In this document: in pieces, positions 55,921 to 61,546 of the stretch
Layout of the letters: each line of letters begins with the position of its first letter
Position numbering within the stretch: position 1 is the first letter of the stretch
Assembly: GCA_000002445.1 (NCBI GenBank)
Contig: CM000208.1
Coordinates: 2,656,001 to 2,720,000 of the forward strand
Length of the DNA: 64,000 nt
Origin: Trypanosoma brucei
Lineage: Eukaryota
Direction of reading: 5' to 3'
The notes under the pieces: generated by a model
Database searches by the model: none
Told to the model about the DNA's origin: nothing
What the model saw: only the letters and a program-made list of their open reading frames with translations
Made by a program: the position numbers and the translations under genes

Positions 55921-58101
55921 ATGCGAGGCCGATTCTTGTCATCGACTTTTCGGCTGGGATTATATCGAACGAAGCAGCATGTGCGTGCCGGTTCGAAGGG
56001 TCAAGAAGATCAGTTCTCCTCTCGCGCATCACATATCATAAGCAGACGCGTTCGTGCTGTGGACTGGCTTTATATGGATCCTGTTGAAAAGTGGACAATA
56101 CTCGTCGACCTTGGAAGGAGGGCTCCGATGTTGCTTGAGGACGCCCTCTCTGGAGCCCCTCCAGGAGGGGAGCAAGGTGTCAAGGCAGAGATGAATCTAT
56201 TAGGAAGGTTGCTGTGTTATTGCCCTTGTGTTTCCAGGAATGGAAAGCGTGCGGCTGCAGCTGTGAGTGAGGAGCACCTTTGTGGTGTGTCTTCGCAGAA
56301 GCACAGAGGTTTGATTGATGGGCTACCTTACTGCGTCCGCCTGCAACTGTGTTTGTCGTTTCTTATGTGGGTACGATCACTCCGAGACGTACAGAACACA
56401 CTTGCACACCTACGAATGCCATTTGCCACCACGCGTCGCTTTAAACGTGGAGTTGTTGCCGATGTTTTCCCAACTTGTCTATCGGAGATGTGCGTTGATC
56501 CCTTTACTACTGTAAGTCTGATGATGGACGAGTCCCTCAACAGCACCGCCGAGCAGGTGCCCGCCCCTCATGCGTGGCGTCCTGACGGTTACTACGAGGA
56601 CGAGGAGGAACGGAGAGCTTGGAGCTTCGCATCGAGATTAGGAAAGAGGAGGTCCTCCTGTATTCCTAGCGGTGGTGGTACGGCCGACAGTGGTGTTGCT
56701 AGTGGTCAGTCACGTCGCCGGCGTTCGTGTGTGGGTCTCACCGGTCGGGATATGGTAATGCTTCGCGAAATACAGGGAATGCGTCCAGTTCCCAGTGATG
56801 ATGATGTGCTGGCAGGCCGATCGGGTCTACATGTTGGCCGGCTGCGGTTGCAGGCCCCTCCTACAAACCTGGGACAGTCGTACACAAATGGCCTGTCGGC
56901 TTCATCATATGCGCTAAGCGACGCTCAGCGAGGTGCACTCCCTTCCCCGCTTGCGGTTGACAATGAGGAGGATGAAGTTTACCATCATAACATTCATCGT
57001 GGTGAGGGATGTCCACTAGACGAAAGTGGTCAGTTGGAGTGCACGCCTATTCACATACCCGTTTCGCTTGCTGCGGACAGAGTCGTCATCACGCGTCACT
57101 GTGCTATGGCACACGCTGCTATATTGACATCACTTTTTGTCGAGGGACGAACCGTACAGTTTACCACAAACCATCCACTACTGCTAGATTACGTGTCTTT
57201 CCTTTTTGCTGAGCTTGTTGAGGCTGGGTGGGTAAGTGCGGCGATATGTGAGGAAAGCCTGCGTCCATATGTGCCTTTGTGGGCGGTAGCGGAGAGCGTG
57301 CTGGTATTGGTCCCACCGAAGGATACCGAGGTATGTCGTACCCATGACGTCCGGGGCACGGCGGACATGATCGTTCAGTGCGCCCCATGCTCCGTTCTTA
57401 CCGAGGATGTAGGACAAATCTCTGGGAGCCGCTTTTACCGAGATTTGAGAGAAGAGGTACAGAGGCTACAAGCCACTTTAATTTCTCGAGGAAATGATGC
57501 GAGTTGGCGGGTGTCGTGGGTTCCGGTTTCGAAATCAACATCACTTTATGCAACTCCTCAGAAAGTCGATTGCGGTGATGCGGGGGAGTTCCAGACTTCA
57601 GTGAACGAGGTACTCCGCCACTGTCACACAGTCACGTTTCTTTACACACCGCGCAACTGTAGGTTTACCCCTCGTGAGATGGAGGGCTGGTGGTGGAACG
57701 GCCTCCCCAGAAGCGTGCTTGTGGTGGGTGTGAACAGTCACCCCTTGGACATTGTTTACTTCTTTCCACAGGCACCATTTTTACATAAGAAGGTTGGTAA
57801 CGCGTTCCGGTACCGTGCCGTACGGCGTGTGCTTTTAAGAAAGAACGTACACGGCGGGAGGGAGGGCATTGTGCGCAACTGGCTATACCGCAGTCTTTGG
57901 TGTCGTGGGTTGGCACGCACGGGCCTTCAGGGACAATTGGCCGTGAAGGACAAGATGCGTGTATTGCCCGGCGGGGATGTTACCAAAGGTGGTGAGCATG
58001 CTGTAGACGCTCTGAAGTGGGAGCGTACGGTTGATTACCTAGCCAACCCTGGAAAGATGACGTGGATGGCTCTCGTGGCTGCGAAGCTGCTTCATATTTA
58101 A
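55921..58101 (+). CDS. Hypothetical protein (726 aa)
   Basis: Long ORF in polycistron orientation. No family recognised. Confidence 0.55.
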   Translation: MRGRFLSSTFRLGLYRTKQHVRAGSKGQEDQFSSRASHIISRRVRAVDWLYMDPVEKWTILVDLGRRAPMLLEDALSGAPPGGEQGVKAEMNLLGRLLCYCPCVSRNGKRAAAAVSEEHLCGVSSQKHRGLIDGLPYCVRLQLCLSFLMWVRSLRDVQNTLAHLRMPFATTRRFKRGVVADVFPTCLSEMCVDPFTTVSLMMDESLNSTAEQVPAPHAWRPDGYYEDEEERRAWSFASRLGKRRSSCIPSGGGTADSGVASGQSRRRRSCVGLTGRDMVMLREIQGMRPVPSDDDVLAGRSGLHVGRLRLQAPPTNLGQSYTNGLSASSYALSDAQRGALPSPLAVDNEEDEVYHHNIHRGEGCPLDESGQLECTPIHIPVSLAADRVVITRHCAMAHAAILTSLFVEGRTVQFTTNHPLLLDYVSFLFAELVEAGWVSAAICEESLRPYVPLWAVAESVLVLVPPKDTEVCRTHDVRGTADMIVQCAPCSVLTEDVGQISGSRFYRDLREEVQRLQATLISRGNDASWRVSWVPVSKSTSLYATPQKVDCGDAGEFQTSVNEVLRHCHTVTFLYTPRNCRFTPREMEGWWWNGLPRSVLVVGVNSHPLDIVYFFPQAPFLHKKVGNAFRYRAVRRVLLRKNVHGGREGIVRNWLYRSLWCRGLARTGLQGQLAVKDKMRVLPGGDVTKGGEHAVDALKWERTVDYLANPGKMTWMALVAAKLLHI

Positions 58102-58933
58102 CGCTACATGTGCTTTGCCAAAGGAAGGGAGGGAGTAACTGCTCTCAGACCTCCATTTTCCCCTTGTTCTTTTTTTTTCCGTGTGTACGTTATCTGTGGT
58201 CCTTGGAGTCTAGTACTATTCCATATTGTGTCTGTGTAAGTGTGTAGTGGGGTATCGTACACGTTATATTCTATATATCGCCCTTCATAACATTTTTAGG
58301 CACTTATTGTATATATTGCATTGTGTTTGTACGGTGCCGCTTTCTGCATTTCACTTACTGGCAGTTACACTGGCCAGCTTTGCGCTGAAGGCACCCCGAC
58401 TCACCAGACATTCAATCCACAAGTCTCCGTCGGGCCTGCCAATTCTGCGGTACCTTCTGAACCTCTGCTGTGTTAACTTAAGCGTGGTGGCGGTCAAATC
58501 TACTTATCCCTTTACATCGGTTGGGCAAACATCGCGTTCACAGAAAGAATGAAAGTTTCTACTGGTAAGTGTGGTGTCATCAGCAGGGCCCTGCTCAGTG
58601 GAAGCGGTGTAAGGTCCCCACCGAAAGGAAGCTCGTAGATGTGCATGGAGACCCCTGGCGGCACCGAGAAAAAAAATGTACTTTCTATGCCGAGCGCGTG
58701 CTTTGCAGAGCGTCCGTTTTTTAAAGATTTGAACACGGCAGGCACCGCTTCAACTCTATCAAGTTAACGTGGAGTAGGTATTCTTTCGGCAACCGTACGC
58801 TTCAGCGTGTCCCCTTTAAGAACAGACTGCATATACGGCGTTGTCGGTTGGGCCAGTGGCAAATTTTATCCCTGCAGCCCTATCTCGCAACTCCTAGAAC
58901 CCCTATTTGTTACATTGCATTAAATATGTAGCC

Positions 58934-59031
58934 TTAACATGACGAGTGAGGAGCGCTATATCTTCTTCACCAAGTGCAGAATTAACCGTCTGAGTACTTT
59001 ATCACTTTGAAGTGAAGCGCAACCTGATTTA
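58934..59031 (+). ncRNA. Box C/D snoRNA (copy 1 of type A)
   Basis: C box AUGACGA (58939–58945), internal D' CUGA (ccgtCTGAgt), C'-like UGAAGUGA and terminal D box CUGA (59024–59027). Length ~95 nt. Confidence 0.6.
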
Positions 59032-59107
59032 CCGGTTACATGCTGTTTCCTCCCTTTGTTTCCACTTAAGCCTCCTCTCTCGTATACCCGGAAGTTTGTT
59101 ACGTAGC

Positions 59108-59179
59108 CGTTGCTCAGGGAGTTCTGTACGCCGCTGAGTGGTATTGCTCGCTTAGTGGAGCGATTTACTCCCCAGATTT
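59108..59179 (+). ncRNA. Probable single-hairpin H/ACA-like snoRNA with 3' AGA box (copy 1)
   Basis: Stem between GGGAGT and ACTCCC flanks an internal loop. An AGA trinucleotide lies 3 nt from the predicted 3' end, the trypanosomatid H/ACA-like architecture. Confidence 0.4.
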
Positions 59180-59192
59180 GTTATGTGAGGAG

Positions 59193-59270
59193 TGATCGCT
59201 GATGAAGTTGATATGGTCCGTGTTTCAGATCGCTGAATTGACGCACAATAGCATATCTTCTGAGTTCTGC
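59193..59270 (+). ncRNA. Box C/D snoRNA (copy 1 of type B)
   Basis: C box UGAUGA (gcTGATGAag), D' CUGA (cgCTGAatt) and terminal D box CUGA (cttCTGAgtt). Length ~78 nt. Confidence 0.6.
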
Positions 59271-59408
59271 ACTGCCCCCCTGTACTATCGCTGTTTTGAA
59301 TGCTGTTGTCAGGTGTTGTTAGTTGGGCCAGTGGCAATTTTTATTCATTCGGCCCTCTCCCACAACTCCTAGAACCCCTATTTGTTACATTGCATTAAAT
59401 ATGTAGCC

Positions 59409-59506
59409 TTAATATGACGAGTGAGGAGCGCTATATCTTCTCCACCAAGTGCAGAATTAACCGTCTGAGTACTTTATCACTTTGAAGTGAAGCGCAACCT
59501 GATTTA
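59409..59506 (+). ncRNA. Box C/D snoRNA (copy 2 of type A)
   Basis: Same elements as 58934–59031 shifted by 475 bp. C box at 59414–59420, D box at 59499–59502. Confidence 0.6.
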
Positions 59507-59582
59507 CCGGTTACATGCTGTTTCCTCCCTTTGTTTCCACTTAAGCCTCCTCTCTCGTATACCCGGAAGTTTGTTACGTAGC

Positions 59583-59654
59583 CGTTGCTCAGGGAGTTCT
59601 GTACGCCGCTGAGTGGTATTGCTCGCTTAGTGGAGCGATTTACTCCCCAGATTT
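59583..59654 (+). ncRNA. Probable H/ACA-like (AGA-box) snoRNA (copy 2)
   Basis: Same hairpin as copy 1. AGA at 59649–59651. Confidence 0.4.
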
Positions 59655-59667
59655 GTTATGTGAGGAG

Positions 59668-59745
59668 TGATCGCTGATGAAGTTGATATGGTCCGTGTTT
59701 CAGATCGCTGAATTGACGCACAATAGCATATCTTCTGAGTTCTGC
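59668..59745 (+). ncRNA. Box C/D snoRNA (copy 2 of type B)
   Basis: UGAUGA at 59675–59680; terminal CUGA at 59735–59738. Confidence 0.6.
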
Positions 59746-59883
59746 ACTGCCCCCCTGTACTATCGCTGTTTTGAATGCTGTTGTCAGGTGTTGTTAGTTG
59801 GGCCAGTGGCAATTTTTATTCATTCGGCCCTCTCCCACAACTCCTAGAACCCCTATTTGTTACATTGCATTAAATATGTAGCC

Positions 59884-59981
59884 TTAACATGACGAGTGAG
59901 GAGCGCTATATCTTCTCCACCAAGTGCAGAATTAACCGTCTGAGTACTTTATCACTTTGAAGTGAAGCGCAACCTGATTTA
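59884..59981 (+). ncRNA. Box C/D snoRNA (copy 3 of type A)
   Basis: Same elements at +950 bp from copy 1. Confidence 0.6.
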
Positions 59982-60057
59982 CCGGTTACATGCTGTTTCC
60001 TCCCTTTGTTTCCACTTAAGCCTCCTCTCTCGTATACCCGGAAGTTTGTTACGTAGC

Positions 60058-60129
60058 CGTTGCTCAGGGAGTTCTGTACGCCGCTGAGTGGTATTGCTCG
60101 CTTAGTGGAGCGATTTACTCCCCAGATTT
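60058..60129 (+). ncRNA. Probable H/ACA-like (AGA-box) snoRNA (copy 3)
   Basis: Same hairpin/AGA elements at +950 bp. Confidence 0.4.
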
Positions 60130-60142
60130 GTTATGTGAGGAG

Positions 60143-60220
60143 TGATCGCTGATGAAGTTGATATGGTCCGTGTTTCAGATCGCTGAATTGACGCACAATA
60201 GCATATCTTCTGAGTTCTGC
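60143..60220 (+). ncRNA. Box C/D snoRNA (copy 3 of type B)
   Basis: UGAUGA at 60150–60155; terminal CUGA follows at the conserved spacing. Confidence 0.6.
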
Positions 60221-60544
60221 ACTGCCCCCCTGTACTATCGCTGTTTTGAATGCTGTTGTCAGGTGTTGTCGGTTGGGCCAGTGGCAACTTTTATCCCTGC
60301 AGCCCTATCTCGCAACCCCTAGAGCCTGTAGTCGTTAGGGTTGTTGTGACGGTGTTTTAACTTTGTGGATGTGTGATTCTTCATGTGGTGGCGGTCGTAG
60401 TTGACTTTTTGGTCTTGCCTTGAGCTATTGATATCGAGCGCCCTGTTATAGTCTTTGACCGGCACAGTTTACTTAAATTTCTTTTGTTTAATATGAATGC
60501 TAAGTAGGGAATAGCGAGTCTGCGCCCTTTGGCCCTTCTCGGAC

Positions 60545-61546
60545 ATGTCATTGTTTGATGATGATGATGATGTGGGGTCTTCAGTTTCGTCCACTGAGGG
60601 CGATCTTAACGAGAGTGTTGTACCCATGAGCACAGTAAGGACGGGCGGGGTTTGTGTGAAGACTGAAGCTAAGACTAATGGACCTCGCACAGGACTTGAG
60701 GATGTGCACCGGTTTACGCTTAGCGTTGAGGAAACGCAGCGGGCAGAGGAGCGGAGGCGTGTAGAGGCGAGTAAAAGACTTTTACTATCAACTGACGGTG
60801 GCTTAATTCCGAATTCGTGCGGCGGTCCTTCATCTCAGGAGCGGAGTCGGTTCGGGTCCTCTATAGCGGAGGCTCTCCGTCTTCGTAGTGAAACACGGGA
60901 GAGGGTGCTACTACAACGCATTCTGAGGCAGCGGCGAGAAGAGGAGGGCAATGAAGAGTTGGCGGAGAAGGATATGGAGGTTGGTGTATTTATCACTCCG
61001 CAGTACCTTAGTGCTCTCAAGCGTCAGAGAAGTACGCGAGCGACATCCCCCGGAGGTCTTGCAAAGCAAACAGAAAACACGGAGGATATGGACCCACTGG
61101 AGTTGTATGTGCAAGAGTTGGAGGAAAGACGTCGGGTGGTGGGAAAAAAAGATCATGACTCGTCTGATGTTGGCACCAACAGGAACGATGGGGGTAGGGA
61201 CCAAGATATGGGGCTGAGAGTGCACTCGGCACAGGTTGTTTCAGGAAATAAGCAACCGGAACATGTGGAACGAAGTGGTGTGACGGGCATTCCTTGCGGC
61301 CACGATGTTGTCTATTCTGTGAAAGCAAGTAGTGGCGCGTGGGTCCCCACTGGTACTAACGGCGCTGTAATTGATGTTTCCGGCGCGGCCGCACCAGCAT
61401 CTCCGAGTCCGACGGCGAACTCCGCGACCCCCCAGGAGGCGCTGCAGGAGGTTAGATGGAGACGGCAAAAGCCGCGTGCGGACCGTTCGTTTATAGAGTC
61501 CGCAGCCACACGGTTTAATAGACGATCTATGGACCGTTTTGTGTAA
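60545..61546 (+). CDS. Hypothetical protein (333 aa) with acidic N-terminus (MSLFDDDDDVGSS...)
   Basis: ORF in polycistron orientation immediately downstream of the snoRNA array. No family recognised. Confidence 0.5.
   Translation: MSLFDDDDDVGSSVSSTEGDLNESVVPMSTVRTGGVCVKTEAKTNGPRTGLEDVHRFTLSVEETQRAEERRRVEASKRLLLSTDGGLIPNSCGGPSSQERSRFGSSIAEALRLRSETRERVLLQRILRQRREEEGNEELAEKDMEVGVFITPQYLSALKRQRSTRATSPGGLAKQTENTEDMDPLELYVQELEERRRVVGKKDHDSSDVGTNRNDGGRDQDMGLRVHSAQVVSGNKQPEHVERSGVTGIPCGHDVVYSVKASSGAWVPTGTNGAVIDVSGAAAPASPSPTANSATPQEALQEVRWRRQKPRADRSFIESAATRFNRRSMDRFV

What the first reader, a model, noticed from the sequence alone, without database searches (positions are those of the whole stretch)
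58841..60320. Tandem 475-bp snoRNA cluster (2 C/D + 1 AGA-box H/ACA-like per unit, 3.1 copies) embedded in the plus-strand gene block
An exact 475-bp period with near-identical copies accounts for the three identical 61-aa minus-strand ORFs as artefacts. Within each unit there are two canonical box C/D architectures (AUGACGA…CUGA…CUGA and UGAUGA…CUGA…CUGA). A single hairpin (GGGAGT/ACTCCC stem) ends in AGA 3 nt from the 3' end, the trypanosomatid H/ACA-like format. The guide regions upstream of the D/D' boxes would define 2'-O-methylation targets on rRNA/snRNA that cannot be assigned here.
Basis: partly seen in the sequence, partly recalled or inferred. Interest (0 to 1): 0.6.

Follow-up and report, generated by a model that had tools for sequence, protein, structure and literature searches.

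The report
Known trypanosome snoRNA gene cluster TB10Cs2
This is the already described tandem snoRNA gene cluster TB10Cs2 on Trypanosoma brucei chromosome 10, with four small guide RNAs per 475-bp repeat that direct known chemical modifications of ribosomal RNA; the only possibly new detail is that the inner repeats carry a re-targeted version of one guide.

Summary
In detail: there is a 475-bp tandem repeat with 3.1 copies at window 58836-60326. The interpretation as a snoRNA cluster is right in kind but incomplete. Rfam names the locus: it is the published T. brucei cluster TB10Cs2. Each unit carries four genes, not three: H/ACA-like H1, C/D C1, H/ACA-like H2 and C/D C2. All four targets can be assigned and agree with published maps: C1 to SSU Um36 (mature U8), C2 (a U18/SNORD18 counterpart) to LSU-alpha Am746, H2 to LSU-alpha psi1009, and H1 to LSU-beta psi490. 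The cluster is syntenic and its guide elements are conserved from Leishmania to T. brucei. One detail is absent from the literature I could reach. Twelve of the 14 differences between units 1 and 2 lie in H1. The two inner H1 copies (H1b) carry four pocket substitutions that abolish pairing to the psi490 site and create perfect pairing, in the same register, to H69 psi518. Overall this is already known, of low interest, with a modest testable side lead.

The parts
58836..60326 (+). Whole array: H1a-[C1-H2-C2-H1b]-[C1-H2-C2-H1b]-[C1-H2-C2-H1a'], period 475 bp
   Evidence: TRF; unit comparison; Rfam
58836..58901 (+). H1a, H/ACA-like snoRNA TB10Cs2H1 with the conserved pocket (5' strand CGGUU, 3' strand UAUCUC), AGA box at 58896-58898; guides LSU-beta psi490
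   Evidence: RF01525 at 84 bits, threshold 35; pocket invariant across Trypanosoma and Leishmania apart from one C-to-U change in T. cruzi that keeps pairing as G:U; 5+4 Watson-Crick pairs around U490 of T. brucei LSU-beta; published assignment
58934..59031 (+). C1, box C/D snoRNA TB10Cs2C1, copy 1 (ends approximate): box C ATGACGA 58939-58945, guide GCAGAATTAACC 58976-58987, D' CTGA 58990-58993, D CTGA 59024-59027
   Evidence: Sequence; guide and boxes conserved in 5 aligned species and also visible in the L. donovani unit; 12 guide-core pairs (one G:U) plus a further G:U at guide position 2, with SSU U36 at position 5; published Um36
59113..59179 (+).
   Evidence: RF01863 at 103.4 bits, threshold 50; fold z-score -2.76; 7+5 pairs around U1009; published assignment
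59194..59267 (+). C2, box C/D snoRNA TB10Cs2C2, copy 1, U18/SNORD18 counterpart: box C TGATGA 59200-59205, guide TGGTCCGTGTTT 59214-59225, D' CAGA 59226-59229, D CTGA 59260-59263
   Evidence: SNORD18 at 27.4 bits, below its threshold of 41, with guide and D' aligned; 12 Watson-Crick pairs with LSU-alpha 742-753 and A746 at position 5; guide invariant in 6 species
59311..59376 (+). H1b, variant TB10Cs2H1 copy with altered pocket (5' strand UAGUU, 3' strand UCUCCC); candidate guide for H69 psi518
   Evidence: RF01525 at 55.9 bits; differences from H1a; 9/9 Watson-Crick at U518 and 5/9 at U490; fold z-score -2.81
59409..59506 (+). C1, copy 2 (ends approximate)
   Evidence: 475-bp offset from copy 1; box positions
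59588..59654 (+). H2, copy 2
   Evidence: RF01863 at 103.4 bits
59669..59742 (+). C2, copy 2 (D' CAGA 59701-59704, D CTGA 59735-59738)
59786..59851 (+). H1b, second inner copy, identical to 59311-59376
   Evidence: RF01525 at 55.9 bits
59884..59981 (+). C1, copy 3 (ends approximate)
   Evidence: 475-bp offset
60063..60129 (+). H2, copy 3
   Evidence: RF01863 at 103.4 bits
60144..60217 (+). C2, copy 3
60261..60326 (+). H1a', terminal H1 copy with the conserved (a-type) pocket; this is the 0.1 copy of the array
   Evidence: RF01525 at 78 bits; alignment
55921..58101 (+). Upstream flanking protein-coding gene (conserved hypothetical, identical to T. brucei TREU927 XP_823350), same strand as the array
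60545..61546 (+). Downstream flanking protein-coding gene (conserved hypothetical), same strand
59152..60287 (-). Span containing three identical 61-aa TTG-start ORFs (59152-59337, 59627-59812, 60102-60287): repeat artefacts antisense to H2, C2 and H1
   Evidence: no Pfam match

Best explanation
The array is the Trypanosoma brucei chromosome-10 snoRNA gene cluster TB10Cs2. It lies between two protein-coding genes on the same strand. By established knowledge of trypanosome snoRNA clusters, it is inferred to be transcribed by RNA polymerase II as part of a polycistronic precursor, from which the small RNAs are cut and trimmed. Each 475-bp unit encodes four guide RNAs. C1 is a box C/D RNA whose D' antisense element pairs with nucleotides 5-17 of the mature small-subunit rRNA and places U8 (published numbering SSU_36) at the methylated position. 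C2 is the trypanosome counterpart of U18/SNORD18. Its D' element UGGUCCGUGUUU, followed by a CAGA D' box, pairs with LSU-alpha 742-753 and places A746 at the methylated position. H2 is a single-hairpin AGA-box H/ACA-like RNA whose pocket brackets U1009 of LSU-alpha. H1 is a second such RNA whose conserved pocket brackets U490 of LSU-beta, 28 nt upstream of helix 69. Shown here: the genes, their boxes, folds, cross-species conservation and the guide-target duplexes. Taken from the literature: that these positions are modified and respond to NOP1 or CBF5 depletion. Inferred: transcription and processing, and RNP assembly. A side inference is that the two inner H1 copies (H1b) have been re-targeted by four pocket substitutions from psi490 to H69 psi518.
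For: Rfam hits far above threshold: RF01863 TB10Cs2H2 three times at 103.4 bits (threshold 50) and RF01525 TB10Cs2H1 four times at 55.9-84 bits (threshold 35). Flanking proteins are identical to T. brucei group chromosome-10 proteins with consecutive accessions. Synteny: the orthologous gene in T. b. gambiense, T. vivax, T. grayi, T. cruzi and L. donovani is followed by the same cluster, with 1 to at least 14 H1 copies. Guide cores are invariant across species: GCAGAATTAACC in C1 and TGATATGGTCCGTGTTTC in C2. The H1 pocket strands are conserved while the apical stem varies with two compensatory pairs. The H2 upper helix is 87.5% paired, against 36-47% for the whole structure when partners are slid. 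Duplexes against published T. brucei rRNA sequence: C1 D' has 12 guide-core pairs (one G:U) plus a further G:U, with U36 at position 5; C2 has 12 Watson-Crick pairs with A746 at position 5; H2 has 7+5 pairs at U1009; H1a has 5+4 at U490. In both H/ACA RNAs the first paired nucleotide of the 3' pocket strand lies 14 nt from the AGA box. The same two C/D sites are hit in every environmental kinetoplastid rDNA that covers them: 10 loci for SSU and 56 for LSU. Published maps name exactly these guides for SSU_36, LSU5_746, LSU5_1009 and LSU3_490. Um36 falls on NOP1 silencing (0.75 to 0.42), Am746 is 93%/91% by mass spectrometry, and psi490 and psi1009 fall on CBF5 silencing. Gene organisation and processing are described. 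For H1b.
Against: No C/D family in Rfam reaches its gathering score: C2 scores 27.4 against 41 for SNORD18, and C1 has no Rfam match at all. C1's box C is AUGACGA, one mismatch from the consensus. With free register and G:U allowed, neither the C/D nor the H/ACA target searches beat shuffled guides on the redundant rDNA set, so the target assignments rest on conservation, on a fixed-register test and on agreement with published maps. The MFE folds of C1, C2 and two of the three distinct H1 sequences (H1a and H1a') are not significantly more stable than shuffles. Expression and ends of the RNAs were not measured here. The naming paper (Liang et al. 2005) could not be read.
Confidence: 0.95

Rival explanations
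1. One reading: three snoRNA genes per unit (two C/D plus one H/ACA-like), with the remaining sequence being spacer.
For: The three elements it names are real.
Against: A fourth gene, H1, scores 55.9-84 bits against RF01525 in every unit and at the array end. It is conserved from Leishmania to T. brucei and has a published target.
Confidence: 0.02
2. H1b (the inner H1 copies) is a drifting, functionless duplicate of H1a rather than a re-targeted guide. Psi518 would then be made only by the published guide TB9Cs2H1.
For: H1b scores lower against the family model (55.9 against 78-84 bits). Psi518 already has a published guide. No expression data distinguish H1a from H1b. With free register and G:U allowed, the H69 hit is not better than shuffled pockets (139 of 300 shuffles). 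Only the T. brucei group has H1b, so it has no deep conservation.
Against: The substitutions are not random. Twelve of the 14 differences between units fall in this 66-nt gene while 409 nt of flanking repeat differ at 2 positions. All four substitutions at pairing positions of the pocket convert a 9/9 Watson-Crick match at U490 into a 9/9 match at U518 in the same register. That is the only 9/9 site among 1,423 U sites of a complete rRNA, and the only one of 81 possible four-position variants with a perfect site. The remaining substitutions keep or strengthen the hairpin: U9:G52 becomes U9:A52, C19:G41 is gained, the fold is -21.0 against -19.3 kcal/mol, and the z-score is -2.81. The AGA box and the 14-nt spacing are intact.
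Confidence: 0.45
3. The array is a non-coding satellite, or the minus-strand 61-aa ORFs encode a repeated small protein.
For: Three identical ORFs exist.
Against: The ORFs have TTG starts and no Pfam match, and they lie antisense to three RNA genes that have strong covariance-model hits. The repeat unit is conserved as RNA genes, not as an ORF, in other species.
Confidence: 0.01

Closest known systems
T. brucei snoRNA cluster TB10Cs2 (TB10Cs2H1, C1, H2, C2; nomenclature of Liang et al. 2005; Rfam RF01525 and RF01863)
   Same: It is this locus. The H2 copies match the RF01863 consensus at every position and the H1 copies match RF01525 above threshold. The chromosome-10 flanking genes, targets and tandem organisation all agree.
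   Different: Nothing for H1a, C1, H2 and C2. The tables I could read treat TB10Cs2H1 as one RNA with targets psi490 and an unmodified U1229. They do not separate the H1b variant found in the inner units.
U18 / SNORD18 (Rfam RF00093), the guide for the yeast 25S A649/C650 and human 28S equivalent (site numbers from my own knowledge)
   Same: C2 carries the same antisense element, UGGUCCGUGUUU, directly upstream of D', and targets the homologous GAAACACGG site.
   Different: It scores below the family's gathering threshold (27.4 against 41). Its D' box is CAGA rather than CUGA. It is encoded in a tandem polycistronic cluster rather than an intron. The rest of the sequence is unrelated.
TB8Cs2H1A / TB8Cs2H1B, a named pair of T. 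brucei H/ACA-like isoforms with different rRNA targets (LSU3_1300 and LSU3_1210)
   Same: A precedent for paralogous copies of one H/ACA-like gene within a cluster guiding different pseudouridines. H1a and H1b would be the same kind of pair.
   Different: The TB8Cs2 pair is named and assigned in the literature. The H1a/H1b split is not, in what I could read.
TB10Cs2'C1 = snoGRUMPY, in the neighbouring cluster TB10Cs2' upstream of RBP7
   Same: Same chromosome and same cluster series. It is a C/D snoRNA processed from a longer Pol II transcript.
   Different: It is not in this window: primers for snoGRUMPY, grumpy and Tb927.10.12080 find no match with up to 3 mismatches. Nothing here suggests a role in mRNA regulation.

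Membership tests
Rfam RF01863 TB10Cs2H2 | Covariance-model score at or above the gathering threshold (50 bits) | tested here: met
   103.4 bits for each of 3 copies, full-length match 1-67
Rfam RF01525 TB10Cs2H1 | Covariance-model score at or above the gathering threshold (35 bits) | tested here: met
   84, 78, 55.9 and 55.9 bits, all full-length matches 1-66
Trypanosomatid single-hairpin H/ACA-like snoRNA | A single hairpin with an internal pseudouridylation pocket | tested here: met
   Rfam structure lines; folds; H1 stem pairs kept in 10 sequences with 2 compensatory pairs; H2 upper helix 87.5% paired
Trypanosomatid single-hairpin H/ACA-like snoRNA | AGA box 3 nt from the 3' end | tested here: inconclusive
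   The AGA is present and invariant at the expected place, but the 3' ends of the RNAs were not mapped here.
Trypanosomatid single-hairpin H/ACA-like snoRNA | Bipartite complementarity flanking a U, with about 14-16 nt between pocket and box | tested here: met
   H1a 5+4 at U490, H2 7+5 at U1009, H1b 5+4 at U518; 14 nt to AGA in all three
Trypanosomatid single-hairpin H/ACA-like snoRNA | Association with CBF5, and target pseudouridine dependent on CBF5 | not testable with these tools
   Literature only: psi490 and psi1009 scores fall on CBF5 silencing
Box C/D snoRNA | Box C (RUGAUGA) near the 5' end and box D (CUGA) near the 3' end | tested here: met
   C2 has a UGAUGA core preceded by C, and CUGA. 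C1 has AUGACGA (one mismatch; AUGAUGA in T. cruzi, T. grayi and T. vivax) and CUGA.
Box C/D snoRNA | Antisense element of at least 10 nt ending next to D or D', with the modified nucleotide opposite position 5 | tested here: met
   C1 D': 12 guide-core pairs plus a further G:U, U36 at position 5. C2 D': 12 Watson-Crick pairs, A746 at position 5. The D-box elements of both RNAs show no convincing rRNA target.
Box C/D snoRNA | Association with fibrillarin/NOP1, and target 2'-O-methylation dependent on it | not testable with these tools
   Literature only: SSU_36 falls from 0.75 to 0.42 and LSUa_746 from 0.92 to 0.86 on NOP1 silencing; Am746 is 93%/91% by MS
Rfam RF00093 SNORD18 | Covariance-model score at or above the gathering threshold (41 bits) | tested here: not met
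   27.4 bits, E = 0.0016 on 151 nt. C2 therefore works like U18 (same guide, homologous site) but is not filed as a member of the Rfam family.

The most novel reading that the evidence does not exclude
The inner repeat units carry an unrecognised isoform of TB10Cs2H1 (H1b). Four pocket substitutions switch it from LSU-beta psi490 to psi518 in the loop of helix 69, a functionally critical, developmentally regulated pseudouridine currently credited to a single solitary snoRNA gene (TB9Cs2H1). Only inner units carry H1b, so its dose would scale with array copy number: one H1b in T. b. gambiense, two in this window. That would make array expansion a way to tune H69 modification.
Probability: 0.4. 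Interest if true: 0.4.

Novelty: already known. Interest (0 to 1): 0.2.

Why it matters
The cluster itself adds nothing new: it is a named, expressed and functionally mapped T. brucei locus. The correction matters for annotation: four genes per unit, the true D' box of C2, and explicit targets. The H1a/H1b split would matter modestly if real. It would add a redundant or dose-variable guide for an H69 pseudouridine whose known guide could not be knocked out. It would also give a clean natural example of an H/ACA guide being re-targeted by a handful of point mutations to a site 28 nt away.

Tried and rejected
1. Primers for snoGRUMPY, grumpy and Tb927.10.12080 were searched in the window because the sister cluster TB10Cs2' hosts snoGRUMPY. 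There were no matches, so that biology is not in this window.

2. The naming paper (Liang 2005) and the L. major comparison (Liang 2007) are not held. Targets were taken from later papers instead.

3. A first pure-Python complementarity scan timed out.

4. Scans allowing G:U freely were dominated by low-complexity spacer hits and did not beat shuffled guides. Stricter scoring recovered the two conserved C/D targets, but a shuffled-guide maximum over 285 kb of redundant rDNA is a poor control.

5. A free-register H/ACA target search on one rDNA was not significant for any pocket. It became informative only after the register was fixed from the validated H1a-psi490 pair.

6. I considered baiting T. 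brucei rDNA through spurious ORFs in the LSU, but no ORF spans H69 in L020, so I dropped the idea. The T. brucei rRNA sequence came from a paper supplement instead.

7. The TREU927 and T. congolense loci could not be fetched, so the copy number in the reference strain and the age of H1b remain open.

8. The D-box antisense regions of C1 and C2 found no convincing rRNA target. The published second C1 site (SSU_16, in the 5' ETS) pairs only as 6 bp, a 1-nt target bulge and about 5 bp.

9. One line, the alternative CUGA D' box for C2, was set one register off. The conclusion rests instead.
Full report
**Observation.** The window holds a single tandem array at 58840-60323 with period 475, 3.1 copies, 97% matches and no indels. 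A base-by-base comparison puts the limits of homology at about 58836 and 60326. Three identical 61-aa ORFs lie on the minus strand exactly 475 bp apart and match no Pfam family.

**Identity.** A scan of the whole window against Rfam gave seven hits above gathering thresholds, all in the array. RF01863 'TB10Cs2H2' hits three times at 103.4 bits (threshold 50). RF01525 'TB10Cs2H1' hits four times at 84, 55.9, 55.9 and 78 bits (threshold 35). The names follow the T. brucei nomenclature: chromosome 10, cluster 2, H/ACA 1 and 2. The protein encoded just upstream (55921-58098) is identical to T. brucei TREU927 XP_823350. The downstream ORF's product is identical to a T. equiperdum protein, and the TREU927 member of its 90%-identity cluster (XP_823351, annotated at 306 aa) carries the next accession number; both TREU927 genes lie on a 4.05-Mb chromosome. 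The window is therefore Trypanozoon chromosome 10, and the array is the published cluster TB10Cs2.

**Anatomy of a unit.** Each unit holds four genes, not three.
- H1 (66 nt) sits across the repeat junction. This is why there are four H1 copies and '3.1' units.
- C1 (about 98 nt) has box C AUGACGA, D' CUGA, a degenerate C' box and D CUGA.
- C2 (74 nt) has box C UGAUGA, D' CAGA and D CUGA.
That tetramer is CTGG, ATGG or CGCG in the other species, while GTGTTT-CAGA (CTGA in T. vivax) is invariant. The SNORD18 covariance model also aligns its own D' box to the CAGA.

**Comparative evidence.** Orthologues of the upstream gene were found throughout trypanosomatids and their loci were fetched. Rfam finds the same cluster downstream in five of them:
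- T. b. gambiense: H1a-H2-H1b-H2-H1a', which is 2.1 units
- T. vivax: one H1
- T. grayi: two H1
- T. cruzi: at least 14 H1, period 486 bp
- L. donovani: 14 H1, period about 638 bp

Reading the units shows C1 and C2 in all six species, and H2 in the Trypanosoma species except T. grayi, where that stretch is masked by Ns. The C1 antisense core GCAGAATTAACC and the C2 core TGATATGGTCCGTGTTTC are invariant. The H1 pocket strands (CGGUU and UAUCUC) are conserved from Leishmania to T. brucei, with one C-to-U change in T. cruzi that keeps pairing as G:U, while the apical stem changes with compensatory pairs. The H2 upper helix stays 87.5% paired, against 36-47% for the whole structure when the partners are slid.

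**Targets.** Environmental kinetoplastid rDNA was fetched using a 5.8S primer sequence I recalled from memory, and one complete unit was annotated. The C1 D' element pairs with the SSU 5' end in all 10 loci that cover it. The C2 D' element pairs with GAAACACGGACCA in 56 loci.

The actual T. brucei rRNA sequence around each site was then read from Supplementary Data 10 and 11 of PMC10662448, and explicit duplexes were computed:
- C1 D': 12 guide-core pairs (one G:U) plus a further G:U at guide position 2, with SSU_36 at position 5. SSU_36 is U8 of the mature RNA, because SSU_29 is the mature 5' G.
- C2 D': 12 Watson-Crick pairs, with LSU-alpha A746 at position 5.
- H2: 7+5 pairs bracketing U1009 in CAAAUCGC-U-CGUACGA.
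- H1a: 5+4 Watson-Crick pairs bracketing U490 in GACGAGAU-U-CACCGACG.
- In each H/ACA RNA, 14 nt separate the first paired nucleotide of the 3' pocket strand from the AGA box.

These are exactly the published assignments. TB10Cs2C1 is named for Um36, whose RiboMeth score falls from 0.75 to 0.42 on NOP1 silencing, and cryo-EM density is recorded for it. TB10Cs2C2 is named for Am746, which is 93%/91% by mass spectrometry; C747 is listed by sequencing methods but is unmodified by MS. TB10Cs2H2 is named for psi1009. TB10Cs2H1 is named for psi490, which is 2.4-fold higher in bloodstream forms.

The D-box antisense regions of C1 and C2 have no convincing rRNA partner and are not conserved as guides. 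In C2, the conserved CAUAUC before box D is complementary to the conserved GAUAUG before the guide, and the two pair in the predicted fold. This suggests an internal stem.

**Mechanism.** By established knowledge of trypanosomes, snoRNA genes lie in clusters that mix C/D and H/ACA-like genes. They are transcribed polycistronically by RNA polymerase II and processed from the precursor. The H/ACA-like RNAs are single hairpins with an AGA box 3 nt from the 3' end. The array here sits between two genes on the same strand, which fits. Transcription, processing and RNP assembly are inferred, not shown here.

**The one detail that may be new.** Differences between copies are not spread evenly. Units 1 and 2 differ at 14 positions. 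Twelve are inside the 66-nt H1 gene and only two are in the other 409 nt. The first and last H1 copies (H1a, H1a') have the pan-trypanosomatid pocket. The two inner copies (H1b, identical to each other and to the inner copy of T. b. gambiense) differ at pocket positions 10, 11, 47 and 50, at the closing pair (52) and in the apical stem.

Using the register of the validated H1a-psi490 duplex, H1a matches the U490 site 9/9 and the U518 site 5/9. H1b matches U518 9/9 and U490 5/9. In a complete kinetoplastid rRNA with 1,423 U sites, H1b has one 9/9 site, the H69 U equivalent to U518, and the next best score is 7/9. The chance that a random 9-nt template has any perfect site is 0.0054. Of the 81 possible four-position variants of the H1a pocket, only the H1b combination has a perfect site. 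The other substitutions keep or improve the hairpin: U9:G52 becomes U9:A52, C19:G41 is gained, the MFE is -21.0 against -19.3 kcal/mol, and the z-score is -2.81.

U518 is a real pseudouridine in the H69 loop, credited to the solitary gene TB9Cs2H1. That gene could not be knocked out. The tables I could read list TB10Cs2H1 as one RNA, with psi490 and an unmodified U1229 as its targets. I therefore rate H1b as a plausible second guide for psi518 at about 0.4.

Against this, there are no expression data, no conservation beyond the T. brucei group and a lower family score. The free-register search was not significant. I also could not read the original 2005 description.

**Verdict.** This is a known, well-characterised locus. 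It needs three corrections: a missed fourth gene, a misplaced D' box, and targets that can in fact be assigned. Novelty is 'already known' and interest is low, with a modest testable lead in the H1a/H1b dimorphism.

Noticed in passing
window 58836-58901, 59311-59376, 59786-59851, 60261-60326: H1 exists as two sequence types. The outer copies have the pan-trypanosomatid pocket. The inner copies carry four pocket substitutions that move perfect complementarity from LSU-beta U490 to H69 U518. Twelve of the 14 differences between units 1 and 2 fall in this 66-nt gene.
   Followed up: yes
L121 12917-13937 (T. b. gambiense); L128 1-404 (T. equiperdum OVI); window 58836-60326: Copy number is polymorphic within the T. 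brucei group: 2.1 units in gambiense against 3.1 here. Only inner units carry H1b, so the number of H1b copies appears to equal the number of units minus one. The T. equiperdum OVI contig begins inside the array, so that assembly breaks at the repeat.
   Followed up: partly
L122 15665-22052 (T. cruzi); L127 13120-21490 (L. donovani): The orthologous cluster is amplified to at least 14 tandem units in T. cruzi (period 486 bp, running to the end of the fetched locus) and 14 in L. donovani (period about 638 bp), all with uniform a-type H1. No H2 hit is found in the L. donovani unit. In T. cruzi, T. grayi and T. theileri an extra zf-MYND/SET gene lies between the upstream orthologue and the cluster.
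   Followed up: partly
window 59483-59498 (C1 D-box antisense region, unit 2) versus T. brucei pre-rRNA SSU_12-27: A published table lists a second C1 target, Cm at SSU_16, which lies 13 nt upstream of the mature SSU 5' end, in the 5' ETS. Pairing is imperfect (6 bp, a 1-nt bulge, about 5 bp) and the RibOxi columns are negative. If real, the two C1 antisense elements would bracket the 5' ETS/SSU cleavage site.
   Followed up: partly
window 59210-59215 and 59252-59257 (and the same offsets in units 2 and 3): In C2, GAUAUG just 5' of the U18-type guide and CAUAUC just 5' of box D are both invariant in six species and complementary to each other. Neither pairs with the rRNA target. This looks like a conserved internal stem, possibly occluding part of the guide.
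   Followed up: no
window 58938/59413/59888 and 58967: These are the only copy differences outside H1: C/T/C one nucleotide 5' of the C1 box C, and T (unit 1) against C inside C1 (CTTCTTCACC against CTTCTCCACC). Neither is in a guide or a box.
   Followed up: no
L069 about 6685 (-), L080 about 6858 (-), L092 about 7519 (-): In three environmental kinetoplastid rDNA contigs the LSU sequence departs from the conserved sequence immediately after the H69 loop (after ...ACTATGACTCTC or ...CTCTTAA). This suggests an insertion, an intron or a mis-join at that point.
   Followed up: no
whole window: The neighbouring cluster TB10Cs2', which hosts snoGRUMPY (TB10Cs2'C1), a regulator of stumpy differentiation, is not within this window. 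Four published primers find no match with up to 3 mismatches.
   Followed up: yes
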